Below, piece after piece: positions 3,797 to 30,111 of a stretch of DNA of 38,380 nucleotides. Both the position numbers and the translations under genes were made by a program. The stretch is taken from IMG/VR virus record IMGVR_UViG_2713897056_000005, one strand, 5' to 3'. The number at the start of each line of letters is the position of its first letter. Position 1 is the first letter of the stretch. The notes under the pieces are model-generated. The model saw nothing but the letters and a program-made list of their open reading frames with translations. It ran no database searches and was not told the origin of the DNA. This stretch comes from a virus. Lineage: Duplodnaviria > Heunggongvirae > Uroviricota > Caudoviricetes.

Positions 3797-4897
3797 TCAT
3801 TCTATTTCGAAATCATCAATCCTCACTTCAAGCTCCAGACTGGTCGTAAAACCGTTATCCGGGCTGACGGTATGTGTCAGAGTCGTAATGGTCCATTCCG
3901 CATCATCTATCGGCTGTTTAAAACCACTGACTTTCACTGGCATTTCCGTGTAGAGATCTGCCCGACCTTCCGCCAGTTGTAGCGAGAATGACGCAACGCC
4001 GCGTTGCAGGCGTTCCCACTGCATTTTCGCTGCCCGTTCAGCGTTGCTCCGGTTGGCATAAGTGCGATTAAGTACCAGCACGTTTTCATCCGTACCCACC
4101 AGGTAATCGCCCTGCTTCGCTTCCGGCTCTTTCTTCTGCTTCTTAGTCCTGCGCTTACGCTTCACCGTTGTGCTTTCTTTCTTCGCGGGTTCGCGGGTAT
4201 GCAACCAACTGGCAATTACGCCCGTATAGGCTCCGCGATCTGCCAGGGTAAAGCGGTGACTGTCGCCGTCCTTACGTGTGATAGTGATCACCGGCAGTGG
4301 TTTACCGCTGACACTTTTACTCTGTCCCTGTCGGATGAATAACAGATTGCCATTTTTCACCGACGCAATAGCACCGTACTGGCGCGCCAGCCGCATCAGA
4401 AAACTGCCGTCACTCTCATTAGTCTGGTCTATATGCTCCACGGGCTTATCCGACAGGTCTTTACCCAGTGCCATCTTCAGCTTGTGACGTACGGCTATTT
4501 CCTTCACTACTTCCCCGACGGTGGTCTTGTGCCACGACTTTTCACGGCGGGTATTCAGCGTTTCACGAAAATCAGCACTTCGCGCCCGAATAGTCAGGCG
4601 GTCCGGTGCGCCAGTGTGTTCAATCTCGTCCACCGTGAATGCCCCTTTCGGGAAAAGCGGCTGCCCCTTCCAGCCCAGCGCCAGCGTAATGACCGCACCA
4701 CGGCGCGGCAGCACGATTTTTCCATCGGCGTCGTCCAGCTCCAGATCAAGCTGGTCCGCTTCAAATCCCCGGTTATCCGTCAGCGTCAGCCCCATCAGGC
4801 GGTTGTCCAGCACAGTGGTGATATCCCTGCCTTCAATACTGATGCTGAATGCCGGAGTTTTGTTGCCTTTGTTAAGCAGTTCAGAGCTGAAATTCAC
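3797..4897 (-). CDS. D: Tail protein D (late control gene D family)
   Basis: 366 aa; position downstream of U and adjacent to ogr as in P2; N-terminal region resembles gpD. Confidence 0.8.
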   Translation of the reverse strand: MNFSSELLNKGNKTPAFSISIEGRDITTVLDNRLMGLTLTDNRGFEADQLDLELDDADGKIVLPRRGAVITLALGWKGQPLFPKGAFTVDEIEHTGAPDRLTIRARSADFRETLNTRREKSWHKTTVGEVVKEIAVRHKLKMALGKDLSDKPVEHIDQTNESDGSFLMRLARQYGAIASVKNGNLLFIRQGQSKSVSGKPLPVITITRKDGDSHRFTLADRGAYTGVIASWLHTREPAKKESTTVKRKRRTKKQKKEPEAKQGDYLVGTDENVLVLNRTYANRSNAERAAKMQWERLQRGVASFSLQLAEGRADLYTEMPVKVSGFKQPIDDAEWTITTLTHTVSPDNGFTTSLELEVRIDDFEIE

Positions 4898-8936: not shown

Positions 8937-9452
8937 TCAGAGGCCGAGGGCGTTGCGGTGTGCTTCCATCAGGTCCACACCGTCCACAATTTCCACCATG
9001 TTGATAAGGTCCACTTCATAGAGCACCTCACCATTGATAGTCAGCTTCGCGTAGCTGTTGGTACTGGTCACTTTGGTGGTGTTGCTTTCGCCCGTCTTCC
9101 ACTCGCCGGAATCCACTTCTTTGTGACGTCCACGCACCACAAGCTCCACGGCCTGCACTTCCCCGGTATCGTCACGCTGGATAGAGCCGGTAAAGCGCAA
9201 CTGGATACCATCCACCGTGGCTTTGCCCATCTGCTTAAACAGCAGCAGTTCAGTACCACCAATGGAAAATTCCGTATCCAGTGCGCCGTCATCCAGTCCC
9301 AGATCCACATCCACTGCACCCGGCATTCCGCCGCCGCGATACTTCTCATATTTGCGGGTGAATTTCGGCAGCGTCAGCGACTCAACGATCCCCTGCCAGT
9401 TGTTCCCGTCATTAAACAGGTTCAGGTGTTTTAATTTGCGTGGTAAAGCCAT
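8937..9452 (-). CDS. FII: Major tail tube protein FII
   Basis: 171 aa; immediately downstream of FI; P2 gpFII size and order. Confidence 0.85.
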   Translation of the reverse strand: MALPRKLKHLNLFNDGNNWQGIVESLTLPKFTRKYEKYRGGGMPGAVDVDLGLDDGALDTEFSIGGTELLLFKQMGKATVDGIQLRFTGSIQRDDTGEVQAVELVVRGRHKEVDSGEWKTGESNTTKVTSTNSYAKLTINGEVLYEVDLINMVEIVDGVDLMEAHRNALGL

Positions 9453-9461
9453 GTTGTCCCC

Positions 9462-10634
9462 TTACGCGCTGACCTGGCTGGCAAAATTCACCAGGTACTG
9501 ATCGGTGATGCGCTGACGCAGCATCAGGTTTTCAAGTGGCGGCACTGGCGTGTAGTCGTAGTCGATGGTGAGCTTCCCGGCTTTCAGAGTGTCTTTATCG
9601 TTCACCGACTCATCCAGCCAGCAATCACCACCAATGAGATAGCCCTGACTGACCAGGCTGCGCATTTTGGCGCGGATACCTTCGATAATGTCGCGGGCCA
9701 GCGACGGGTTCAGCGGTTTGTCCACCGCCCACATATGCGCTTCTGCCATCGTGTCCATCAGTACCTGCGCCGTGCGGGTGTAGTTTTCGAAGGCAAAGAG
9801 CGGGTCATCACTCAGGCAGCGGGAACCCCAGAAGCGGAAACCGTCTTTGCGGATAAGCGTGGTGACGTCGTTCTGGTTCAGCAGACCTGCATCGGTTGCC
9901 GGGTCCTGCAGATCCCAGAACACATCAGCAAAAATTCCGGTGACACCGTTCACGCCCACGTTGGACAGGCTTTTGTGCCACCCGGTCTGCTCATCAATTT
10001 TGGCGCGCAGACCGAGCGCACGAGCGGTGGCATATGCCGTTGCTTCGGCATTCAGCAGCGTGTCCCAGCCAGTAAAGTCAGGCCAGATCAGCATCCCTTC
10101 GCGCTGGCTGAAGTTTTCGCGGTAAGTGATCGCCTCCTGCACTGTCTTGCAGCCATACGCTGACAGGTAAGCAAACCCACGCAGGCTTTGCGCCACGCTC
10201 AGCAACTCAGTCGCTACCGCCTTGGTGTCGTGGCCTGGCACGCCGAGAATGCGCGGTTTAACGCCGAGCTGTGACTGGGCAGATAACAGGGCTTTCATAC
10301 CTGTTTTTTTACCTTCAGCAGTCACTGCGCCGATGATATTGGTCGTGGTTTCTTCTTCCGTTTCACCCTGCGGCACACGCACAACAACGGTCACGGGTTT
10401 TGCCTGGTCAGCGATGGCATCCAGCGAGCGGGCCAGTGTGCCGGACTCACCCGCTTTACCGCTGGCAATCAGCACATCAGTGATCAGCACGGGTTTATTA
10501 AGAGGAAACATTTTTGCATCGGCATCATCGCCCGTGCAGACCATACCCACGATGGCGGTGCTCACCGTGGTAATGGATCGGGTGCCTTCGTTGACTTCAA
10601 CAACGCGCACCCCGTGGTGGTAATCCTGAGCCAT
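9462..10634 (-). CDS. FI: Tail sheath protein FI
   Basis: 390 aa; contractile sheath size and position. Confidence 0.85.
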
Positions 10635-10710
10635 AGTGGCGAACCTCCTGATTGGATTAGGCTTCGCCCTATGTTGAAGTGATTGTGCCTGACAAACAGC
10701 TAAGCGCAGT

Positions 10711-10728
10711 TGTACCGTTATTCACACA
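10711..10728. promoter_or_regulatory. Candidate Ogr-dependent late promoter activator site (TGT-N12-ACA) upstream of FI
   Basis: tgtaccgttattcacaca: TGT, 12 nt, ACA; centre about 85 nt upstream of the FI start codon. Confidence 0.5.
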
Positions 10729-10776
10729 AAATGACGGTATTTGTCTACTTGCGGGGATAATCAAAATAATGCTGAT

Positions 10777-11349
10777 TCAGGGGGATTCATTGCTCTTATT
10801 TGCCGGAAATTTTCTATAAATTGTGGAAACACCCACATCAAAAATCAGTGCAATACGCTGTCTTGATTCTCCGGCCTCGAGTAAGCGCCCAATCTGTGCC
10901 CACTGTTCGGTGGTCAACTTAGGACGGCGTCCACCTACTCTGCCTTTATCACGAGCTGCAGCCAGCCCCGCCCTGGTACGTTCAACTATCAGTTCGCGTT
11001 CCATTTCTGCCAGGGCCCCCATGACATGAAAAAAGAAACGGCCCATTGGGGTGCTGGTATCAATACTGTCAGTCAGGCTTCGGAAATTCACGCCACGCTG
11101 GCGCAACTCTTCTATCAGCGTAACAAGATGCCGCATACTGCGCCCCAACCTGTCCAGCTTCCAGACGACCAGCGTGTCTCCTGCCGATAGTGTCCTGAGC
11201 AGTTTTTTCAGCCCCGGTCTGTCGGACTTAGTGCCACTGATTTTATCCTCAAAAATTCGCTCACATCCCGCGCAGTTCAGTGCATTACGTTGCAAATCGG
11301 TGTTCTGGTCATTTGTTGACACGCGTACATAGCCAATAAGCATGATCAT
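10777..11349 (-). CDS. Serine-recombinase DNA invertase (Gin/Cin/Pin/Hin family)
   Basis: MLIGYVRVSTNDQ N-terminal catalytic-serine motif, resolvase/invertase core, C-terminal helix-turn-helix (GVSTIYRKF); true start may be the third codon (11343). Confidence 0.85.
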   Translation of the reverse strand: MIMLIGYVRVSTNDQNTDLQRNALNCAGCERIFEDKISGTKSDRPGLKKLLRTLSAGDTLVVWKLDRLGRSMRHLVTLIEELRQRGVNFRSLTDSIDTSTPMGRFFFHVMGALAEMERELIVERTRAGLAAARDKGRVGGRRPKLTTEQWAQIGRLLEAGESRQRIALIFDVGVSTIYRKFPANKSNESP

Positions 11350-11408
11350 CCCCCTGAATAAAAACCGGAGATGATGCCAGTTAGCCGTAATCTCTGCATT
11401 TTCATAAA

Positions 11409-11424
11409 CGTTGGTTTGGGAGAA
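11409..11424. repeat. Inversion crossover site (invertase-proximal inverted repeat)
   Basis: cgttggtttgggagaa; reverse complement matches 13226..13241 at 15 of 16 positions; resembles gix/hix half-site pattern. Confidence 0.7.
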
Positions 11425-11760
11425 GCGGCAAAACGAAATGTGGGAACAGGGGAAAATCAGATACCAGATATGTCTGCATTCCCATCTGGCAAAAACTGGT
11501 TTCAGTTACCAAGTGGTCATATTGTCCAAATGTTTTCGATGAATGTTTATGGGGCGGACACTAACGGAACTACTGGTAATTTCCCTATTGCATTTCCTTC
11601 AGGTGCACTTGCTGTTAGTGCCTTATGGTCTGATGGCACATTAACGGCTGCTCCGACCTTTAAACTTATGGGGTACACGACAACAAGGACATCAGTAACC
11701 TTAAAAGTATCAACCGGAAATGGTTTGTATGGAACTATGATTATCGCAATAGGAAGATAA
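11425..11760 (+). CDS. Silent alternative tail-fibre C-terminal cassette (promoterless, fuses to the constant part of H after inversion)
   Basis: Frame begins inside the repeat with GLGE, then AAKRNVGTGENQ...; in-frame with H codons LGLGE at the other repeat, so inversion creates an in-frame fusion. Confidence 0.65.
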   Translation, partial: AAKRNVGTGENQIPDMSAFPSGKNWFQLPSGHIVQMFSMNVYGADTNGTTGNFPIAFPSGALAVSALWSDGTLTAAPTFKLMGYTTTRTSVTLKVSTGNGLYGTMIIAIGR

Positions 11761-11761
11761 T

Positions 11762-12205
11762 ATGAATCAATATATTTATTCCCCCTCGGAAAATGCATTT
11801 TATGCTGTTAATTTAAAAAATACTTATGAAGTAAATGGAACATGGCCCGCTGATGCATTAGATATTCCTGATAACATTTCTGTAAAATATATGGCGGAAC
11901 CGCCACAAGGGAAAATCCGAGTTGCAGGGGTAAATGGTTTTCCCACATGGGCTGAAATACCTCAACCATCACATGAAGAACTTATTCAACAGGCAGAATC
12001 AGAAAGACAATTATTGCTTAATCAGGCCAACGAACACATGAACAGTAAACAATGGCCTGGTAAAGCGGCTATTGGTCGTCTGAAAGGTGAGGAACTGGCG
12101 CAATATAATTTGTGGCTGGATTATCTGGACGCACTGGAGCTGGTCGATACTTCCGGTGCGCCAGATATTGAATGGCCTACGCCTCCGGCAGTTCAGGCCA
12201 GATGA
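11762..12205 (+). CDS. Alternative tail fibre assembly protein (silent orientation)
   Basis: 147 aa ORF directly after the alternative cassette; C-terminus (LWLDYLDALELVDTSGAPDIEWPTPP) parallels the active Tfa C-terminus (LDYIDAVTATDTSTAPDVIWPELP). Confidence 0.65.
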   Translation: MNQYIYSPSENAFYAVNLKNTYEVNGTWPADALDIPDNISVKYMAEPPQGKIRVAGVNGFPTWAEIPQPSHEELIQQAESERQLLLNQANEHMNSKQWPGKAAIGRLKGEELAQYNLWLDYLDALELVDTSGAPDIEWPTPPAVQAR

Positions 12206-12779
12206 CATCCGGCGCGGTGCTGGTATCTGTTGCCGTCACCGCGTCAATGTAATCCAGCATGGCGTTAAGTCGGGTTGTTTCTGCCTGCGTCAGTTTCCGT
12301 CCGGCCTGCAATTTCAACTGAATCAGACTAATGGAAGCCATTGCAGTATCAATCAGTGACTGACGTTGTGCTTCTGCCGCGTCTACTGCGGCGCTATGCT
12401 GTGCCTCGGTATCCGTCACCCATTTCTCACCATCCCATTTATCGTATGGCGTTAACGGGGCGATAGTGGTTGTTTTTTCGGGGTAATCACCCGGAGTTGT
12501 GATTTCTTTGGCGTCTCCCGTTTCGGTGTTATAGACAATTTCACCGCGATGGTCTGGCACATATTCCCATGAGTTTAAATCCATCGAACGGCAGATAGCA
12601 TAACCTGCCTTATGTGTGCCAGGGGCATCTAAACAGGAATATGCAGGGATACCGACACCAATGGCAAGATATTCATTTGAAGTGGAAATATATTCCCGTG
12701 TTTCGCCATCATAGTTATAGACGGTAATATTTCCCGCCTTTGTAGCAATAAACTCGCTATTTAATACAGCGTTATCCAT
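12177..12779 (-). CDS. G: Tail fibre assembly protein (gpG/Tfa family), active orientation
   Basis: 200 aa immediately downstream of H; start overlaps the H stop. Confidence 0.8.
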   Translation of the reverse strand: MDNAVLNSEFIATKAGNITVYNYDGETREYISTSNEYLAIGVGIPAYSCLDAPGTHKAGYAICRSMDLNSWEYVPDHRGEIVYNTETGDAKEITTPGDYPEKTTTIAPLTPYDKWDGEKWVTDTEAQHSAAVDAAEAQRQSLIDTAMASISLIQLKLQAGRKLTQAETTRLNAMLDYIDAVTATDTSTAPDVIWPELPEA

Positions 12780-14287
12780 TATGCAGCCCTCACGATATAG
12801 TTAAATGCAATATTCCGTGGGCGAGTATCGGCAGGAACGACATACATTTCACCAATTGCCCGCTCATTAGAGTTGTTCAGCAATAGGCTTGAGCCATTAC
12901 TGTCATGACCCGTAATTAAGATATCATTGGACAAAATAAGTGAGCCCGTACCTGCAGGAATACCATAAATTCCCATATCAAATTTAATATAACCAACACG
13001 CGCGCTCTGTGCAGACATAACGCTGCGACCAGTATCTACTGAACGACCGTCATCCCAGCCACGAATAAACTCACCGCGTAAATCAGGCAATTTATTTGTC
13101 GGGTAAGCCTTTGCCAGTTCCGGGTATTCTTCAGCAGAAAAAGCCGCACCGTTACATTTCAGCCAGCCAGTAGGCGGTGTTGCAGAAGGCCACGGAACAG
13201 GCACACCAACGGGTAATGCCGAACCTTCTCCCAAACCAAGGTATGTGAGAAGACCAGCTACATCCTTTCCACTCAAATTAGTCAGCGTATTGTCCAGCGG
13301 TTGTTTACCTGCCAGCGCATTAAGCATTGTCGTGGCAAAGTTCGGATCATTCCCCAGTGCCGCCGCCAGTTCGTTCAGTGTATCCAGTGCCGCAGGTGCA
13401 GAACCCACCATTCCTGCAATCGCCGATTTCACAAAAGCCGTAGTGGCAATCTGTGTATTATTGACCGACTGCGCCGCCGTAGGGGCTGTTGGCGTTCCGG
13501 TGAGTGCCGGACTCGACAGCGGCGCTTTCAGTGCCAGCGCATTGTTAATGGTGGTACTGAATTTCGGATCATTGTTAATGGCTACGGCTATTTCTTTCAG
13601 CGTGTCCAGCGTGGCTGGCGCACCATTAATAAGAGCCGTCAGTGCCGCCTGAACAAATGCGGTGGTCGCAATCTGCGTGGTGTTATTCCCCTCCGCTGGC
13701 GTTGGCGCTTTGGGTGTTCCGGTCAATGTCGGGCTTTCTTTGGGTGCATACTGTGAATGCGGGTCCGGTGCGGCAAGATGTTTTGCCATCTTATCATCCA
13801 CGAACACCTTCAGCTCCAGTACCTTGTCATCCACATACTTGCGGGTTGCCAGCACGACGGCAGGGTCGATTTTCAGGGTGATATTGTCCGTGCTGCTGGT
13901 AATCAGCACCATGCGCACGGTCTGGGTGCGCCCGCTGCCTTCAGCCAGTTGCGGCTTATAGCTTTCCGGGCAGTTGCCTACGGCAATCAATGCCCCGGAC
14001 TCATCAAACAGACCCACTTCACGTATCCACCAACCACCCTCATTTTCAGGGATCACCTGTTCAGCAATAATCTGGCTGCTGTTCTGCGGGTCGATATAGA
14101 GCATATTCAGCGCAGCCCGGCGTTTCTCATTTACCAGTGCCGTCTGCTTTGCGTCCGGCGCCGACAATGCTCCGCCGCCATCGCCCACCGCCATATGGGT
14201 AATTTTTAGCGGCACACCTAGCGCGGCGGCGCTGGCAAGTTTCGCCGCGCCAATATCCGTCAGCAGGGTATAAAATTTTGTGCTCAT
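12779..14287 (-). CDS. H: Tail fibre protein H (constant N-terminal about 354 aa plus current variable C-terminus)
   Basis: 502 aa; N-terminus MSTKFYTLLTDIGAAKLA resembles P2 gpH; contains internal crossover repeat. Confidence 0.85.
   Translation of the reverse strand: MSTKFYTLLTDIGAAKLASAAALGVPLKITHMAVGDGGGALSAPDAKQTALVNEKRRAALNMLYIDPQNSSQIIAEQVIPENEGGWWIREVGLFDESGALIAVGNCPESYKPQLAEGSGRTQTVRMVLITSSTDNITLKIDPAVVLATRKYVDDKVLELKVFVDDKMAKHLAAPDPHSQYAPKESPTLTGTPKAPTPAEGNNTTQIATTAFVQAALTALINGAPATLDTLKEIAVAINNDPKFSTTINNALALKAPLSSPALTGTPTAPTAAQSVNNTQIATTAFVKSAIAGMVGSAPAALDTLNELAAALGNDPNFATTMLNALAGKQPLDNTLTNLSGKDVAGLLTYLGLGEGSALPVGVPVPWPSATPPTGWLKCNGAAFSAEEYPELAKAYPTNKLPDLRGEFIRGWDDGRSVDTGRSVMSAQSARVGYIKFDMGIYGIPAGTGSLILSNDILITGHDSNGSSLLLNNSNERAIGEMYVVPADTRPRNIAFNYIVRAA
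13226..13241. repeat. Inversion crossover site inside gene H (encodes LGLGE)
   Basis: ttctcccaaaccaagg; inverted copy of 11409..11424. Confidence 0.7.
13304..13729. repeat. Diverged tandem duplication of about 225 bp inside H
   Basis: Protein shows two copies of a roughly 70 aa unit (NNTQIATTAFV...LDTL.E.A.A...DP.F.TT..NALA.K); coordinates approximate. Confidence 0.4.
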
Positions 14288-14889
14288 GGATTCACTCTCA
14301 TTGTGTCAATAACATGGACCGCCCCGCCTTCATGCGCGGTGCCGCCGGAAATAATTGTTTCGTTGATATACGGATAGATCGTGATTTCTTCGCCAAGATA
14401 ACTGGCGGCTCCCACCCAATGCGAACCGCTGGTCTGCAGATTGATGGACATGCCGATCATGTGACGGCTACATGGTTTGGCATCGCTTATCAGTCGCTCA
14501 AGTTCCAGATAGGTATCTTCAGTGATGCCCTGGTCCTGCACACCAATGTCCAGACGAAACGTGCCCGGTGTTTCTCCGGTCTGCCACCACTCAATAATGC
14601 GGATCAGGAAGCCGAACGGCTCCACCACCCGCCGTACGGCACTGGTGGTTCCTTTGTGCTGATGAATATAAAAAGCATCCTTCACTACCTGGCGTTTGAC
14701 GCTTTCTGTCCAGCCCTCGTCCCAGCGATCCACAGAGAACGCCCAGGCGAGATAAGGCAGGAAACTGACCGGACAGGTTGCCGGATTCCACAAGTCACGC
14801 AGTGACACCTGCAGATCAGAAATCCCGCTACAGGTTTGCGCCAGTCGGCGCTCCAGTGGCGTTGAACCCGGTGGCAGCAGACTATTCAT
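14284..14889 (-). CDS. I: Baseplate assembly protein I
   Basis: 201 aa; between J and H; stop abuts the H start. Confidence 0.8.
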   Translation of the reverse strand: MNSLLPPGSTPLERRLAQTCSGISDLQVSLRDLWNPATCPVSFLPYLAWAFSVDRWDEGWTESVKRQVVKDAFYIHQHKGTTSAVRRVVEPFGFLIRIIEWWQTGETPGTFRLDIGVQDQGITEDTYLELERLISDAKPCSRHMIGMSINLQTSGSHWVGAASYLGEEITIYPYINETIISGGTAHEGGAVHVIDTMRVNP

Positions 14890-15790
14890 CCGTTCCCCCG
14901 TTGGTCACGCTCCACTGCGTACATGATGCCGCCTGCGTTTTGTTCAGGACCACATCAGCCAGCGGTGAAGCCAGCTCCACACGTTGAACACCCTCAACAT
15001 GCAGCGCGGCAAAAATAGCACTACGGCGAATATCCCGACCGAGCCGCGTCTGACTGGCGATGTACCTCTGCAGGCTGACTTTTGCCGCTGCCATTACCGG
15101 CTCTGCTTCCGGTCCCGGATAAAGAAAAATGGTAGCTTCCACACGGTACGGGATGATTTCTGCGCTGCGAACCGTCAGACGGTCAGCCACCGGGCGGACG
15201 TTCTCACTGTTCAGGGCTTTCTCCACCACATCCAGCAAGTCTTTTTCTGCTGTTCCGTCGCCTTCACGACTCAGGACAGTCAGTACCACCTCTGCAGGTG
15301 CCGGACTGGTTGCACTGGCATCCGCCACCCGACCGTCGGCGCTTCGGGCATGAAATTCATAAGCGGCAGTTGGCCCCGCAACAGAAAGCCCTTCAAAGGC
15401 TGCAGGCACACGCAGGCGTAACGCTTCATCGCTTTCCATCACAGCCGCAACGGGTGGCACAGCGTCATTATCAGCAGGCGTCACCGTCAGGCGTTTCACG
15501 TTGTAGTTGGCAGCGAGCTGGTCAAGATCGCCGCCCATCGCGTAAGCCACCATCACAGCCTGCGCGGCTTCGTTAATGCGCTGGCGCAGAAGCAACTCAC
15601 GGTAAGCGTTCTCCTGCAGCAATTTGGTGACGGGTTCAGATTCCAGTTCCAGCGTGCGGATCACGGCTTCCTGCTCATCTTTCGGATGAAGCACCACAAA
15701 TTCGGCCTTGCGTTCGGCAAGCAGCGTCTCAAAGTCCGGCACATCGACAATCTGCGGCGCAGGCAACTGCGAAAGGTCAATCACTGCCAT
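14882..15790 (-). CDS. J: Baseplate assembly protein J
   Basis: Start set at MAVIDLSQLP (internal Met of the longer ORF), giving about 302 aa as in P2 gpJ. Confidence 0.8.
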   Translation of the reverse strand: MAVIDLSQLPAPQIVDVPDFETLLAERKAEFVVLHPKDEQEAVIRTLELESEPVTKLLQENAYRELLLRQRINEAAQAVMVAYAMGGDLDQLAANYNVKRLTVTPADNDAVPPVAAVMESDEALRLRVPAAFEGLSVAGPTAAYEFHARSADGRVADASATSPAPAEVVLTVLSREGDGTAEKDLLDVVEKALNSENVRPVADRLTVRSAEIIPYRVEATIFLYPGPEAEPVMAAAKVSLQRYIASQTRLGRDIRRSAIFAALHVEGVQRVELASPLADVVLNKTQAASCTQWSVTNGGTDE

Positions 15791-25602: not shown

Positions 25603-26268
25603 TTAAAGATCCGGATCTACAGGCTCATGATATAGATTTACAGGGTAATGAATAACTTCATAATTCAGTTGAGTAACTGTGTGAACATGCTGGCTATAAA
25701 AAACCAATGGATTTTTTTGACAAGGAGTAATCGTTATAGATTTACAGGCATGAATTCTTGGTGCGAATTTATCTAAATGCGCCTTCCAGTTGCTCATCAT
25801 TTCATTACATTTTCTATTACGAGTATAGATAATCAATCCACCACTTGCGCTGTCTACGGTCCCTGTACTATATCGTTCAGTGAGTTGAGCATACCCTTTA
25901 AATAAATAACTATATGAAGATGTATGTTTTTTGGCTTCGCCATGCCAAATATAATCCTTTAGTTTTATTGTAATATCACAATGTCCGCGCTGATTATTTT
26001 CATGAAATGCTTCAATGCCCATATCTTTATTTTTGATATTGGCCAATAAAATTAAAGTAAGCTGATCTTCTGTTAAATCGAAGTTTAACTTATTTGAATT
26101 CTCTTCTATTTCCTTTACAGCAGAATCAAGTTCAATCCTGACAAATTGTTTGAAATTATCGTACGATTGAAGTGCAAATCTAACACGAGTAATAGAAGCA
26201 TTAATACGCTGAAGAAAAATATCATTATCAATATCAGCCAAACTCATTGCTGCAGACATTTTTAACAT
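25603..26268 (-). CDS. Hypothetical protein, gene 3 of AT-rich cargo operon; possible PD-(D/E)xK-like nuclease motif
   Basis: 221 aa; start ATG overlaps the stop of the upstream gene (TGATG); segment GHCDITIKLKDYIWHGEAKK fits a D...ExK pattern (weak). Confidence 0.5.
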   Translation of the reverse strand: MLKMSAAMSLADIDNDIFLQRINASITRVRFALQSYDNFKQFVRIELDSAVKEIEENSNKLNFDLTEDQLTLILLANIKNKDMGIEAFHENNQRGHCDITIKLKDYIWHGEAKKHTSSYSYLFKGYAQLTERYSTGTVDSASGGLIIYTRNRKCNEMMSNWKAHLDKFAPRIHACKSITITPCQKNPLVFYSQHVHTVTQLNYEVIHYPVNLYHEPVDPDL

Positions 26269-26702
26269 CAGATAATATCCTTTGATTTAGATTCATCTAA
26301 TGTAAAAAAAGGAAATACGAATGACTTATAGTCATACATAAGCTCCCCTGTAAATGGGTTTACTAAAGATTGACTGATTTCCGCCTCAATAACTTCCTCT
26401 ATTTCAAGTTCTACAGGGTCATGAAAATCATCAATGAACCAATAATTGAGTTTTAAAAAATCAACCTTTGGGCTACAAAGAATTTGTATGGCCGGATAGA
26501 TAACCTGCTCATACGTTTCTGGCTGTAAAACCTTATTATAACCACCAGCTATATTAAATAAATCCTTATAACTTAAAGCTATATTTGATGATTTTTTAGC
26601 CCTTGCCTCGATTTCATCGTACAAATAGCAAGCTAACGCCCCAATTTCAGGGCGTTCTGCACACATTTCTTTGATGATCTTGGGCATATCACCATCCTTC
26701 AT
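26268..26702 (-). CDS. Hypothetical acidic protein, gene 2 of cargo operon
   Basis: About 144 aa from the ATG at 26702 with GGAG Shine-Dalgarno; Asp/Glu-rich. Confidence 0.5.
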   Translation of the reverse strand: MKDGDMPKIIKEMCAERPEIGALACYLYDEIEARAKKSSNIALSYKDLFNIAGGYNKVLQPETYEQVIYPAIQILCSPKVDFLKLNYWFIDDFHDPVELEIEEVIEAEISQSLVNPFTGELMYDYKSFVFPFFTLDESKSKDII

Positions 26703-26714
26703 TGCTGACTCCAA

Positions 26715-27821
26715 TTATAATATCAGCTTTGTGAGGGTTTCGAAATCATCTTTGGATATACATTTACTTAATATAGCATAGTTAACAGGAGAGCAACTAC
26801 TCCCTCCTAGATGCCTGCGGAGTGTTCCCGGAATGATAAGCTCTACGTTATCCGCTAATTGCAGTTTTGGATTATTTCTATCAACTCTAATTCCAATACG
26901 ATACAAACCAATACTGCCTACTGCTTTGATGCCTTCCTTATTAAACAAATCATCACGTAAGTCTTTAGTGGCCACATTTTTCTTTTCTTTATGCGTAGTC
27001 CCCTCATTCGTCAAAAATGACAAATCAAAGACTTTATAGCTTAATTTTGAATAAGGCAATGAATTTTGTTTGAAAATTGGCTCAATTAACGGATAAAAAT
27101 CTTTTTCCGATGATTTAAATTCATAACCGACATGATTATACAATTCACGAATAATGTTACTCTTTGCAAAAGTAACATTATCACCAATAATATTACCATT
27201 AGTATCTACCAAAACATGAATTTTATTAGTAACAGAGTCTAATATACAGACATCAAAACATTGTCGCTTTTCTTTTCGCTTTGCAATAATTTCATCAAAC
27301 TGCTTGTATTGCGCAAGTGCTGACGGGGGAATTTTTTCTCTTACAACTAATTCTCTGACAGATGAAAAAACAAGTATTGACTGGGTGTTTTGAATAGAAT
27401 AATTAACAAGTTCAGGTTGATTTTTTACAGCATTTTGCAATTGGACATCATCAAGGATCGAATCAACCAATAATGATGGTTGATTCATCAAATTCCATTG
27501 AAAACTAAATCTGTCATTTAGTGTTTTAATTACACTATTATCTACAGTCAAACTAAATATTGCTTTTTCACCATAAACGACCTGACCAAAAATTAGGTCA
27601 TTTACGTTTGCCATAATGCCATCAAACTTTTGCCTATCTTTACTTTTAAGATCAATGAGGCTTTCTAGTATTTTTTCGTTTGTTGCTTCACGCCCCCTAC
27701 CTGTTGGCAGCCCTAAAGACGCAATAATTGGCCTTGCAACGTTCCATGTGAAACGTTCAGTTAAGGTCAAGATCGACTTTAACTCAGACTCAGAAAGCAC
27801 TACTGGGACACTACCTGTCAT
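26715..27821 (-). CDS. Hypothetical protein, gene 1 of cargo operon
   Basis: About 368 aa from the ATG at 27821 with AGGTG Shine-Dalgarno (a GTG at 27830 is an alternative start); no recognisable ATPase or other motif. Confidence 0.5.
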   Translation of the reverse strand: MTGSVPVVLSESELKSILTLTERFTWNVARPIIASLGLPTGRGREATNEKILESLIDLKSKDRQKFDGIMANVNDLIFGQVVYGEKAIFSLTVDNSVIKTLNDRFSFQWNLMNQPSLLVDSILDDVQLQNAVKNQPELVNYSIQNTQSILVFSSVRELVVREKIPPSALAQYKQFDEIIAKRKEKRQCFDVCILDSVTNKIHVLVDTNGNIIGDNVTFAKSNIIRELYNHVGYEFKSSEKDFYPLIEPIFKQNSLPYSKLSYKVFDLSFLTNEGTTHKEKKNVATKDLRDDLFNKEGIKAVGSIGLYRIGIRVDRNNPKLQLADNVELIIPGTLRRHLGGSSCSPVNYAILSKCISKDDFETLTKLIL

Positions 27822-27980
27822 AACTTGCACCTAGTCATCCAAAAAGCAATAAGAATTTGCTCTTGTCTTAATTTATCCTTCGATACCTAACAAATTACCT
27901 CAATGTTGAAAAAATTTGCAAGCCATTTGCTTCTAAAAAGCGACCTTACTCAGAGTGTTACAAAACTAAGCGAGCGCGCG

Positions 27981-28552: not shown

Positions 28553-29525
28553 CTAACTTCCCTTTATTTTTAGTTCGTTAAAAATATCTTCGATTACCAA
28601 TCCATTTTTAATTAAATGCTGCACAATATTTTCATATTCTTTGAAATTGTCAATATGCAAGCCATGATCTTTTTCTTTAGCAATTCTCGTGATCACATGT
28701 ACGCTATCTGTATAATCAATCTTATTTTTAAGAGCATTGAGCAAACTTATACTTGGATTTAAAGTTGAGATTAGTTTACCAAACTCGGTTTGTAACTCTT
28801 TGGATTGATGAGTATTAATATAATCTTCAATAAAAGCATCAAAATCTCCTTGCAACTCAACTTTAAGGTTTGCTATATCCTTCATAATATTTTCTAACTC
28901 AGAAGAGTATGGCCGACCATGTTTAAAATCGAATAAAAAAAGATTTGCTTTCTCAATACATTCGCAAATATAAAAAACTGTATAAAGGGAATATTTTTGC
29001 TTAACTTTTAATTTTCCATAGGCGTAGTGAACCAAAAGATGCTTAGCATTAATAACATTTTTATTTTTTGAAAGTTGATTGTTAGTTGCAGGCGGATAAA
29101 TTACCACATCAACATTATCTAAATTTTGAAAAGTTTTTAAAATAAGAGCCTCAACCTTATTCCAATCGAGGCCCCCATTACCACAGCCTAAAGGTGGTAT
29201 TGATATTGATGTAATTTTTTTTTTCATCTATAATTTTTGCTAAAGATTCAAGGCCTTGCGAGATAAAATCATATGTTGATTTTTTTCTCCAACTATCTTT
29301 AGTGGGAAAGTTTACAATTATTTTTCCCTTTTCCTCTACAATTAAAACCTGTCCAATTTTCATTGTACCAGTGGCGCATGCTCTCTTATAAACTTCGAAA
29401 TTATAGGGAAAAGTTTCTTTAAAAGCCAAAGCAATACCCTTTCCCATGACTCCTTGGCAGTTTACAGCATTCACAAGAGCTTGCGATGTAGAGTTTAGAA
29501 GATTTCCGCTTGCATACTTAATCAT
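28553..29525 (-). pseudogene. darG: DarG-like macrodomain antitoxin, split into two ORFs at an A10 tract
   Basis: 29178..29525 encodes the macrodomain N-terminus (ALVNAVNCQGVMGKGIALAF) and 28553..29227 continues it (SIPPLGCGNGGL) plus a C-terminal domain; frames switch inside the A10 run at 29215..29224. Confidence 0.65.
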
Positions 29526-29529
29526 AGAA

Positions 29530-30111
29530 TTAGAACATATAAGTGTTGATCGTTATCAATATACTTAATCCTTGTTGTTTTATCAACCCTTCAACATATT
29601 TTTTTTCGTTATCATTTTTGACAAAGATGCAATGGAAATTTTTCGGCTCGACCGTTACACTTGATAAACACTCAGCCATACATACAGATTTGCATTCTGC
29701 ATTTTTATAATCCCTTATATTCATTAGCTCCCAGTCAATTTGGGCCATTCCTTGTTCATAATCTAAGAGGTCTATAACAGAACTGGTGGATAATGGATGT
29801 TTAGGGATAACTTTCCAACCATTTTCTTTGGCAAATGCCCGACAAACCGAAATAATACAAAATGATTTTTCCTTATGATCTTTCAGGACTCTTCCATCAA
29901 ATGGATTCTTAGTAAAGAAATGAAAAGGAACCATTGTTTGCAAATTTAATGCTTCGCGACCTGTTATTATTTCACCGTCGGCCACATCAACAAACTCACC
30001 TTTTACTGATGCACGAGATCTTAATCCTGTATCTAAAATACTAGGTAGATTATCCATACATGTTAAATGATAGAGAAGATACTGATCTTCAATTCTTTTC
30101 CTTTCGCTCAT
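29530..30111 (-). CDS. darT: DarT-like DNA ADP-ribosyltransferase toxin (DUF4433 family)
   Basis: N-terminal LLYHLTCMDNLPSILDTGLRSR matches the DarT signature as I recall it; 193 aa; 4 nt upstream of the macrodomain gene; GGATGA Shine-Dalgarno. Confidence 0.65.
   Translation of the reverse strand: MSERKRIEDQYLLYHLTCMDNLPSILDTGLRSRASVKGEFVDVADGEIITGREALNLQTMVPFHFFTKNPFDGRVLKDHKEKSFCIISVCRAFAKENGWKVIPKHPLSTSSVIDLLDYEQGMAQIDWELMNIRDYKNAECKSVCMAECLSSVTVEPKNFHCIFVKNDNEKKYVEGLIKQQGLSILITINTYMF

What the first reader, a model, noticed from the sequence alone, without database searches (positions are those of the whole stretch)
11409..13241. Invertible tail-fibre host-range switch driven by a Gin/Pin-family invertase
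A 16 bp inverted repeat pair (15/16 match) brackets a 1.83 kb segment. One copy lies inside tail-fibre gene H at codons LGLGE; the other precedes a promoterless ORF whose frame also reads GLGE across the repeat. Inversion would therefore swap the last 148 aa of H for an alternative C-terminus of about 112 aa and exchange the cognate assembly chaperone. This mirrors the Mu G, P1 C and e14 P segments and implies two adsorption specificities in one prophage.
Basis: seen in the sequence. Interest (0 to 1): 0.6.

Follow-up and report, generated by a model that had tools for sequence, protein, structure and literature searches.

The report
Invertible tail-fibre switch in a P2-like prophage
This is a working but ordinary DNA-flipping switch in an E. 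coli P2/186-like prophage: it swaps the tip of the tail fibre and its helper protein, and it is a close relative of the long-known e14, P1 and Mu switches.

Summary
The 16-bp repeat is the core of two 26-bp sites in inverted orientation (11399-11424 and 13226-13251). Each has two 12-bp half-sites around a central TT. The left site is identical, 26 of 26, to the site next to pin in prophage e14.

The sites bracket an 1827-bp segment holding two convergent cassettes, each a tail-fibre tip plus an assembly chaperone. Beside it lies an intact 188-aa serine invertase, 85% identical to e14 Pin, 77% to P1 Cin and 74% to Mu Gin.

Flipping the segment in silico joins H codons 1-350 in frame to the other tip, changing H from 502 to 465 aa.

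That flipped sequence matches the E. coli S40 chromosome at 100% over 3601 nt in a single piece. The window's flanks are 99.9% identical to S40. Two further pairs of near-identical genomes differ only by this inversion. Each exact isoform occurs on 8 public contigs, and draft assemblies often break at the sites.

Change of host range is inferred, because the receptors are unknown.

The same kind of switch has been shown experimentally in P2-like prophages of EPEC and described in Fels-2. It is already known and of low interest.

The parts
10777..11343 (-). DNA invertase gene, 188 aa, of the Pin/Gin/Cin/Hin family. The ORF finder extends it to an upstream ATG at 11349.
   Evidence: Pfam Resolvase E 7e-53 and HTH_7 E 1.5e-15. 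PDB Gin 3uj3 E 3e-93 over residues 1-184. 85% identical to e14 Pin, 77% to P1 Cin, 74% to Mu Gin. Ser9, H106 and M114 are as in the wild-type enzymes, and Q150, R153, L154, K46, K47 and R50 are present.
11254..11325 (.). Putative Fis-dependent recombinational enhancer, nt 19-90 of the invertase gene. Inferred by homology only.
   Evidence: It is homologous to the stretch annotated as 'enhancer of Cin-mediated C-segment inversion' in P1. It is identical at 57 of 72 positions to P1, 62 of 72 to e14 pin and 53 of 72 to Mu gin. The exact Fis cores were not resolved, and the test for excess synonymous conservation was inconclusive.
11363..11382 (-). Weak hairpin followed by a T-run, between site L and the invertase start. 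It could be a terminator or attenuator for read-through from the late operon. Its status is uncertain.
   Evidence: It matches the terminator-like scan. The stem is not conserved in e14 or Mu.
11399..11424 (+). Crossover site L, 26 bp, next to the invertase gene, with the central TT at 11411-11412.
   Evidence: It is identical at 26 of 26 positions to the pin-proximal site of e14 and aligns with cixL, cixR and gix.
11412..13238 (.). Invertible segment, 1827 bp between the two crossover centres.
   Evidence: The in-silico inversion of exactly this interval matches E. coli S40 at 100% over 3601 nt in one piece. The window aligns to S40 as flank, reversed segment, flank.
11413..11760 (+). Tip cassette Hv', silent in this orientation. 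It contributes 111 aa after GLGE and is of the gp53-like_C type. The mechanical ORF starts at 11371.
   Evidence: Pfam PF21882 E 8e-9. It reads in frame with H across the site. The best match among phages is 60% identical. The match to the R1 pyocin fibre 6cxb is weak, E 0.013.
11762..12205 (+). Tail-fibre assembly chaperone, 147 aa, belonging to the silent tip.
   Evidence: Pfam Caudo_TAP E 8e-33. Its C-terminal half is 65% identical to e14 TfaP.
12177..12779 (-). Tail-fibre assembly chaperone, 200 aa, TfaE-like, belonging to the tip that is expressed in this orientation.
   Evidence: Pfam Caudo_TAP E 5e-32. 89% identical to e14 TfaE. Its start overlaps the H stop codon, and its 3' end overlaps the other chaperone gene by 29 bp.
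12779..13225 (-). Variable C-terminal part of H in this orientation, codons 355-502, made of a Collar domain plus the tip.
   Evidence: Pfam Collar at residues 361-408. 55% identical to e14 StfE. PDB short tail fibre 9cuy E 3e-18 and T4 gp37 2xgf E 2e-14.
13226..13251 (-). Crossover site R, 26 bp, inside H at codons 347-354, with the central dinucleotide at 13238-13239.
   Evidence: Many 'partial' H proteins from draft assemblies end exactly here.
13240..14287 (-). Constant N-terminal part of tail-fibre gene H, codons 1-349.
   Evidence: Pfam Phage_tail_fib at residues 1-150, E 8e-65. It is identical in the 502-aa and 465-aa isoforms. Residues 181-340 are 80% identical to P1 S.

Best explanation
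This is a functional switch of the Pin/Gin type in the late tail-fibre operon of a P2/186-like prophage. The prophage is integrated between ybjL and rcdA in an E. coli very close to strain S40.

Proposed mechanism. Dimers of the 188-aa serine invertase bind the two 26-bp sites. With Fis bound to an enhancer inside the 5' end of the invertase gene, they form a synaptic complex. They cut both sites at the central TT with a 2-nt stagger through Ser9, rotate one pair of half-sites by 180 degrees, and religate. The 1827-bp segment is thereby flipped.

Consequence. The late transcript then encodes one of two fibres. One is H(1-354) plus a 148-aa tip with a Collar domain, followed by a 200-aa TfaE-like chaperone; this is the window's state, 502 aa. 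The other is H(1-354) plus a 111-aa gp53-like tip, followed by a 147-aa chaperone; this is the flipped state, 465 aa. A lysogen culture therefore releases two kinds of virion, presumably with different receptors.

What is shown: the sites, the frames, the invertase family, and the occurrence of both orientations in otherwise identical DNA.

What is inferred from family knowledge: the chemistry, the dependence on Fis and the enhancer, and the difference in host range.
For: Anatomy
- The two 26-bp sites have dyad half-sites and the same TT core.
- The in-silico inversion gives an in-frame 465-aa H'.

Recombinase
- The match to Gin structure 3uj3 has E 3e-93, and identity to Pin is 85%.
- PMC3798978 describes certain residues as uniquely conserved in Fis-dependent invertases. 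They are Hin Q151, R154, L155 and the basic residues 47, 48 and 51. The window's enzyme has them as Q150, R153, L154, K46, K47 and R50.

Inversion has happened
- The flipped construct matches S40 (NZ_CP010235.1) at 100% over 3601 nt in one piece, and S40 annotates the predicted 465-aa protein.
- The window's flanks are 99.94-99.98% identical to S40.
- Two sibling pairs, OkiPb01682/OkiPb01698 and NQ3/LS4, have 100% identical flanks of 4.7 and 5.1 kb and a precisely inverted segment.
- Among complete E. coli genomes, 95 records match the window's orientation and 67 the flipped one at 80% coverage or more.
- The exact 502-aa and 465-aa proteins are each on 8 public contigs.
- Draft contigs end 6-13 nt before site L, and partial H proteins of 345-354 aa (one of them seen on 148 contigs) end at site R.

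Precedent
- Inversion in P2-like prophages of EPEC was shown by sequencing and PCR (PMC4272514).
- Inversion of the Fels-2 tail fibre next to fin was reported (PMC7953296).
Against: - No promoter for the invertase was found by the consensus scan, so its expression is assumed.
- The enhancer is supported only by homology. Simple G-N13-C candidates for Fis cores lie 49 bp apart, not the 48 bp I recall from the literature. Synonymous sites are not clearly more conserved there.
- Neither tip resembles a receptor-binding domain of known specificity. The best phage matches are 55-60% identical and uncharacterised.
- Other invertases in the same host could do the flipping in trans.
- I could not inspect reads from one culture, so coexistence of both orientations within a single population is inferred from assembly breaks.
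Confidence: 0.93

Rival explanations
1. The segment is flipped mainly in trans, by another Pin-family invertase of the host such as e14 Pin, PinQ or PinR. On this view the adjacent gene is dispensable or poorly expressed.
For: Site L is identical to the e14 pin-proximal site. PinQ of prophage Qin is reported to invert the e14 P segment in trans (PMC12529663). No promoter for the invertase was detected.
Against: The adjacent invertase is intact, with all catalytic and Fis-contact residues. It is conserved next to the segment in every related prophage inspected. This rival changes who catalyses the inversion, not what the element is.
Confidence: 0.1
2. The switch is a fossil. The invertase or the sites are inactive, each lineage has a fixed orientation, and the differences between genomes are old events.
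For: Only static assemblies were examined, not reads.
Against: Sibling genomes with 100% identical flanks differ in orientation. The window and S40 differ by a handful of indels over 38 kb yet have opposite orientations. Orientation counts are near parity, at 95 against 67 records and 8 against 8 contigs. Draft assemblies break at the sites.
Confidence: 0.03
3. The orientation differences are assembly artefacts, or result from RecA-dependent recombination between the repeats, rather than site-specific inversion.
For: Repeats can confuse assemblers.
Against: The repeats are only 26 bp, 22 of 26 identical. That is shorter than read lengths and far below the usual length needed for efficient RecA exchange (the latter from established knowledge). 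The junctions fall exactly at the centre of sites matching the invertase consensus, and the outer arms stay with the flanks. Independent complete genomes show both states.
Confidence: 0.02
4. The main role of the switch is in the lysogen, not the virion. On this view one orientation yields a tail-fibre-derived protein that blocks adsorption of other phages, as reported for StfE2 of e14.
For: The tip and chaperone expressed in the window are the e14 StfE and TfaE types, 55% and 89% identical. PMC12529663 reports that the inverted e14 P segment produces StfE2, which blocks adsorption of T2.
Against: Here the cassettes sit in an apparently complete prophage, with capsid, tail, lysis, replication, repressor and integrase genes. 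They lie behind the late operon, which in P2-like phages is silent in lysogens (established knowledge). No promoter-like site lies directly upstream of the silent cassette.
Confidence: 0.05

Closest known systems
P segment and pinE of the defective prophage e14 (E. coli K-12)
   Same: The invertase is 85% identical. The invertase-proximal site is identical at 26 of 26 positions, and the central TT is the same. The distance between site centres is 1827 bp in both by my count. The layout is the same: two convergent tip-plus-chaperone cassettes whose chaperone genes overlap by 29 bp, with the invertase reading away from the segment. TfaE is 89% identical.
   Different: e14 is a decayed element with a truncated fibre gene, and stfE is annotated as a pseudogene. 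Here the segment is attached to a full-length P2-type H in an apparently complete prophage. The tips have diverged, at 55% to StfE and about 32% to the StfP tip.
Invertible tail-fibre loci of P2-like prophages in EPEC E2348/69 (Goldberg et al. 2014, PMC4272514) and of Fels-2 with fin (PMC7953296)
   Same: The phage group and the position in the tail-fibre operon are the same. The segment is about 1.8 kb. Alternative C-termini are fused to a constant N-terminus. Both orientations coexist, as shown there by sequencing and PCR.
   Different: I did not align those loci with the window. One EPEC locus has three repeats and four variants, whereas the window has only two sites.
G segment and Gin of phage Mu
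   Same: The invertase is 74% identical and matches the solved Gin structure at E 3e-93. The sites are 26 bp. The invertase gene lies outside the segment and reads away from it. The S/U against S'/U' logic is the same.
   Different: The Mu segment is about 3 kb, with a different central dinucleotide (TC/GA). Its tips and chaperones are unrelated or only weakly related.
C segment and Cin of phage P1
   Same: The invertase is 77% identical. The cix sites have the same TT core. The annotated enhancer in the 5' end of cin is 57 of 72 identical to the window. The H constant part is 80% identical to P1 S over 160 aa.
   Different: The P1 segment is 4.2 kb. cin reads towards the segment, so cixL overlaps its 3' end.

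Membership tests
Fis/enhancer-dependent serine DNA invertase systems (Hin, Gin, Cin, Pin) | A small serine recombinase: an N-terminal resolvase-type catalytic domain with a Ser9/10 nucleophile, plus a C-terminal helix-turn-helix domain | tested here: met
   Pfam Resolvase plus HTH_7. Full-length match to Gin 3uj3/4m6f at E 3e-93. Ser9 lies in the conserved motif YVRVSTNDQ.
Fis/enhancer-dependent serine DNA invertase systems (Hin, Gin, Cin, Pin) | Two 26-bp crossover sites in inverted orientation, each with two imperfect 12-bp half-sites around an identical 2-bp core | tested here: met
   Sites at 11399-11424 and 13226-13251. The half-sites are TTTTCATAAACG, TTCTCACATACC and TTCTCCCAAACC, and the core is TT in both. 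There are only two such sites in the window and 0 in shuffles. They align with the pix, cix and gix sites.
Fis/enhancer-dependent serine DNA invertase systems (Hin, Gin, Cin, Pin) | A recombinational enhancer in cis with two Fis-binding sites, which in Gin, Cin and Hin lies in the 5' part of the invertase gene | tested here: inconclusive
   The homologous stretch (window 11254-11325) is 57 of 72 identical to the enhancer annotated in P1. Candidate G-N13-C cores lie at nt 22-36 and 71-85. Coding constraint alone could explain the conservation, and the synonymous-site test was not decisive.
Fis/enhancer-dependent serine DNA invertase systems (Hin, Gin, Cin, Pin) | The invertase residues that contact Fis and the enhancer: Hin Q151, R154, L155 and the basic residues 47, 48 and 51 | tested here: met
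   Q150, R153 and L154 are invariant across the window's enzyme, Gin, Cin and Pin. K46, K47 and R50 are present. The feature is defined in PMC3798978.
Fis/enhancer-dependent serine DNA invertase systems (Hin, Gin, Cin, Pin) | The segment really inverts: both orientations occur in otherwise identical DNA, with junctions at the site centres | tested here: met
   S40 matches the in-silico inverted construct at 100%. Two sibling genome pairs differ only by the inversion. Both protein isoforms are in public data.
Fis/enhancer-dependent serine DNA invertase systems (Hin, Gin, Cin, Pin) | Dependence on host Fis and on negative supercoiling | not testable with these tools
   This needs an in-vitro inversion assay or a fis mutant.
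Phage host-range switches by exchange of the tail-fibre C-terminus (Mu G, P1 C, e14 P) | One site lies inside the fibre gene, so that inversion fuses a constant N-terminus in frame to alternative C-termini, each followed by its own chaperone | tested here: met
   S40 annotates the 465-aa fusion followed by the 147-aa chaperone.
Phage host-range switches by exchange of the tail-fibre C-terminus (Mu G, P1 C, e14 P) | The two forms adsorb to different receptors or hosts | not testable with these tools
   The tips are unrelated in sequence and belong to different Pfam families. No characterised receptor-binding homologue was found.
Shufflons (multi-site inversion clusters, Rci tyrosine recombinase) | More than two crossover sites and a tyrosine recombinase | tested here: not met
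   There are only two sites, and the recombinase is of the serine type.

The most novel reading that the evidence does not exclude
The switch might also act in the uninduced lysogen. The cassette next to the invertase, or leaky expression of the StfE/TfaE-type fusion, could yield a free receptor-binding fragment that blocks adsorption of unrelated phages. This has been reported for StfE2 of e14 after PinQ-driven inversion (PMC12529663). It would make an apparently intact P2-like prophage carry a phase-variable defence function. Separately, the two tips may recognise receptors not yet described for P2-like phages.
Probability: 0.05. Interest if true: 0.5.

Novelty: already known. Interest (0 to 1): 0.1.

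Why it matters
It matters little as a discovery. The mechanism, the gene family and this placement in P2-like prophages are all documented, and related segments occur in about two thirds of complete E. coli genomes (3514 of 5426).

It has practical value in three ways:
- Annotation pipelines label the silent cassette as an independent protein and the invertase only as 'recombinase family protein'.
- Short-read assemblies break at the two 26-bp sites.
- Comparative genomics can mistake the two states for different tail-fibre alleles.

The two tips are uncharacterised, so a lysogen carrying this prophage could be used to map two new pairs of receptor and tail-fibre tip.

Tried and rejected
- Promoter scan for the invertase and for the silent cassette. 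Nothing convincing turned up. A GAAAAT hexamer overlapping the outer arm of site L aligns with GATAAT in Mu, but I found no matching -35 hexamer, so I make no claim.
- Terminator-like hairpin at 11363-11382. The stem is not conserved in e14 or Mu, so I list it as uncertain.
- Locating the Fis cores exactly with a G-N13-C rule. The conserved candidates are 49 bp apart, and the synonymous-site test was inconclusive.
- Exact-match scan of GTDB species representatives for the window-orientation junction. It found no hit, so the source genome is not a species representative.
I replaced it with the cluster look-up.
- Hubner & Arber 1989 and Kutsukake et al. 2006 are not held in the library. I cite them only from memory or from reference lists.
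- I considered a shufflon or multi-site system and rejected it, because there are only two sites.
- I did not run structure prediction of the tips, because it would not change the verdict.
Full report
**Observation**

The region holds five genes:
- A 188-aa recombinase at 10777-11343, minus strand. Pfam finds Resolvase plus HTH_7.
- A 129-aa ORF at 11371-11760, plus strand, with a gp53-like_C domain.
- A 147-aa Caudo_TAP chaperone at 11762-12205, plus strand.
- A 200-aa Caudo_TAP chaperone at 12177-12779, minus strand.
- A 502-aa P2-type tail fibre H at 12779-14287, minus strand, with a Phage_tail_fib N-terminus and a Collar domain at residues 361-408.

The reported 16-bp repeat is there and matches at 15 of 16 positions. 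It is the inner part of two 26-bp sites:
- L, 11399-11424: TTTTCATAAACG TT GGTTTGGGAGAA.
- R, 13226-13251, read on the minus strand: TTCTCACATACC TT GGTTTGGGAGAA.

The two sites agree at 22 of 26 positions. Each has two imperfect 12-bp half-sites around the same central TT. The pair is the longest inverted repeat in 9000-15500.

By my arithmetic, the 16-mer alone would occur by chance about 1.3 times per window within 3 kb. The 26-mer pair would occur about 0.03 times. The invertase-site consensus, allowing up to 3 mismatches, hits only these two places and none in 100 shuffles.

H reads L350-G-L-G-E354 across R, and the plus-strand ORF reads V-G-L-G-E across L in the same frame. Inverting 11412-13238 in silico gives an open 465-aa H', with 148 aa replaced by 111 aa.

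**What it is**

The recombinase aligns end to end with the solved Mu Gin structure (3uj3, E 3e-93), with the Ser9 nucleophile in place. It is 85% identical to e14 Pin, 77% to P1 Cin and 74% to Mu Gin.

McLean et al. (PMC3798978) describe certain residues as uniquely conserved in Fis/enhancer-dependent invertases: Hin Q151, R154, L155 and the basic residues 47, 48 and 51. The window's enzyme has them as Q150, R153, L154, K46, K47 and R50.

Site L is identical, 26 of 26, to the site next to pinE in e14. Both sites align with cixL, cixR and gix. The core is TT as in e14 and P1, whereas Mu has TC. The distance from centre to centre is 1827 bp in both the window and e14 by my count. PMC12529663 quotes 1797 bp for e14.

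The rest of the segment also resembles e14:
- The 200-aa chaperone is 89% identical to e14 TfaE.
- The expressed tip is 55% identical to StfE.
- The other chaperone's C-terminal half is 65% identical to TfaP.
- The two convergent chaperone genes overlap by 29 bp, as tfaP and tfaE do in e14.

The element is therefore a homologue of the e14 P segment, attached to a full-length H gene. The surrounding prophage is P2-like in its late genes and 186-like in its early genes. The invertase and the segment sit between gene G and the tail-sheath gene.

**Does it invert?**

The in-silico inverted 3.6-kb construct matches E. coli S40 (NZ_CP010235.1) at 100% over all 3601 nt in one piece. S40's annotation carries the predicted 465-aa fibre followed by the 147-aa chaperone.

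The window's left and right flanks are 99.98% and 99.94% identical to S40, including the chromosomal genes grxA to ybjL. Only the 1.83-kb segment aligns in reverse.

Two further pairs of complete genomes show the same thing for related alleles. In OkiPb01682/OkiPb01698 and NQ3/LS4, 4.7 kb and 5.1 kb of flank are 100% identical and the segment is precisely inverted.

Among complete E. coli genomes, 95 records match the window orientation and 67 the flipped one at 80% coverage or more. The exact 502-aa and 465-aa proteins are each recorded on 8 public contigs.

Draft assemblies break at the sites:
- Two contigs that carry the exact 502-aa H end 6-13 nt before site L.
- The protein cluster contains many 'partial' H proteins of 345-354 aa that stop at ...DVAGLL or ...TYLGLGE, that is, at site R. 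One of them is seen on 148 contigs.

A 26-bp repeat should not break an assembly unless both orientations are present in the reads. I take this as indirect evidence that cultures are mixed.

**Mechanism**

Shown here: the sites, the reading frames, the family and key residues of the enzyme, and the natural occurrence of both states with junctions at the site centres.

Inferred from established knowledge of Hin, Gin and Cin: invertase dimers at L and R and a Fis-bound enhancer assemble an invertasome on supercoiled DNA. Ser9 makes staggered cuts at the central TT. One subunit pair rotates by 180 degrees, and the ends are religated.

The enhancer is proposed at 11254-11325, which is nt 19-90 of the invertase gene and 87-158 bp from the centre of site L. 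This is the stretch homologous to the enhancer annotated in P1 cin. It is identical at 57 of 72 positions to P1 and 62 of 72 to e14. The evidence is weak. Coding constraint could explain the conservation. My simple search for Fis cores gave conserved candidates 49 bp apart. Synonymous conservation exceeds the rest of the gene in five of six pairwise comparisons, but on small counts.

I found no promoter for the invertase. A weak hairpin with a T-run at 11363-11382 lies between site L and the gene, but it is not conserved in e14 or Mu.

**Functional consequence**

The two tips share no detectable similarity (E 0.37) and belong to different Pfam families.
- The expressed tip resembles the collar domains of a solved short tail fibre (9cuy, E 3e-18) and of T4 gp37 (2xgf, E 2e-14).
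- The silent tip has only a marginal match to the R1 pyocin fibre tip (6cxb, E 0.013).
- In the phage collection the best matches are 55-60% identical and uncharacterised.

Two adsorption specificities are thus a reasonable inference from Mu, P1 and the literature. The receptors are unknown.

**Comparison with what is known, and novelty**

Inversion of tail-fibre segments in P2-like prophages was demonstrated by sequencing and PCR in EPEC E2348/69. That work found a two-state locus of about 1.8 kb and a four-state locus with three repeats (PMC4272514).

The Fels-2 tail-fibre inversion next to fin has been described (PMC7953296).

The e14 P segment has been known since 1985, cited as Plasterk & van de Putte in PMC4272514. 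It was recently linked to phage defence through PinQ and StfE2 (PMC12529663).

Sequenced P2-like phages annotate a 'DNA invertase' at this position. Matches to the 3.6-kb region occur in 3514 of 5426 complete E. coli genomes.

The finding is real and correctly interpreted, but it is already known. I score interest at 0.1. The most novel reading not excluded is a function in the lysogen like that of StfE2, at about 5% probability.

Noticed in passing
window 28553-30111 (minus strand): A DarT-DarG toxin-antitoxin defence pair sits in the prophage's cargo region. DarT (29530-30111) is intact. DarG is split into two overlapping ORFs, a 115-aa macro-domain part at 29178-29525 and a 224-aa C-terminal part at 28553-29227. 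S40 RefSeq annotates a single 323-aa protein. The cause is probably an indel or a sequencing error in one of the two assemblies.
   Followed up: partly
window 25603-27830 (minus strand): Three consecutive ORFs of 221, 148 and 371 aa have no Pfam hit and no PADLOC hit. They lie between the portal gene and DarTG, with an IS5 fragment nearby, at the place where P2-like phages carry variable cargo. They could be an undescribed defence or accessory module.
   Followed up: partly
site R, window 13226-13251; loci L012 and L013 ends: Public draft assemblies often end at the two 26-bp sites. 'Partial' H proteins of 345-354 aa, one of them on 148 contigs, stop at site R. Two contigs stop 6-13 nt before site L. 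This is what mixed orientations in the sequenced cultures would produce.
   Followed up: partly
window 11371-11760; L001 3671-4060; L002 20672-21172: RefSeq annotation treats whichever tip cassette is silent as a free-standing CDS, named 'gp53-like domain-containing protein' or 'phage tail protein'. Its N-terminus (MMPVSRNLCIFINV...) lies outside the invertible segment. This is probably an annotation artefact of the switch.
   Followed up: partly
window 12177-12205: The two convergent chaperone genes overlap by 29 bp at their 3' ends. The same overlap is seen between tfaP and tfaE in e14. In Mu, U and U' do not overlap.
   Followed up: no
window 13268-13747 (H residues 181-340): The constant part of H is 80% identical over 160 aa to residues 253-412 of the P1 tail fibre S, with an internal repeat. 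This is the known mosaicism between P2 H and P1 S.
   Followed up: no
whole window; S40 NZ_CP010235.1 3251624-3289995: The window runs from the start of grxA to the stop codon of the prophage integrase. The prophage lies between ybjL and rcdA. Its early region is 186-like (CI, CII, Fil, a DinI-like protein, Dam methylase). Apart from the inversion, the window differs from S40 by 4 mismatches and 7 gap openings in 32.5 kb aligned.
   Followed up: partly
window 11399-11405 and Mu L003 around 4533-4539: A -10-like hexamer (GAAAAT here, GATAAT in Mu) overlaps the outer arm of the invertase-proximal site on the invertase strand. If it is the invertase promoter, binding of the enzyme to the site could autoregulate its expression. 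No matching -35 hexamer was found.
   Followed up: no
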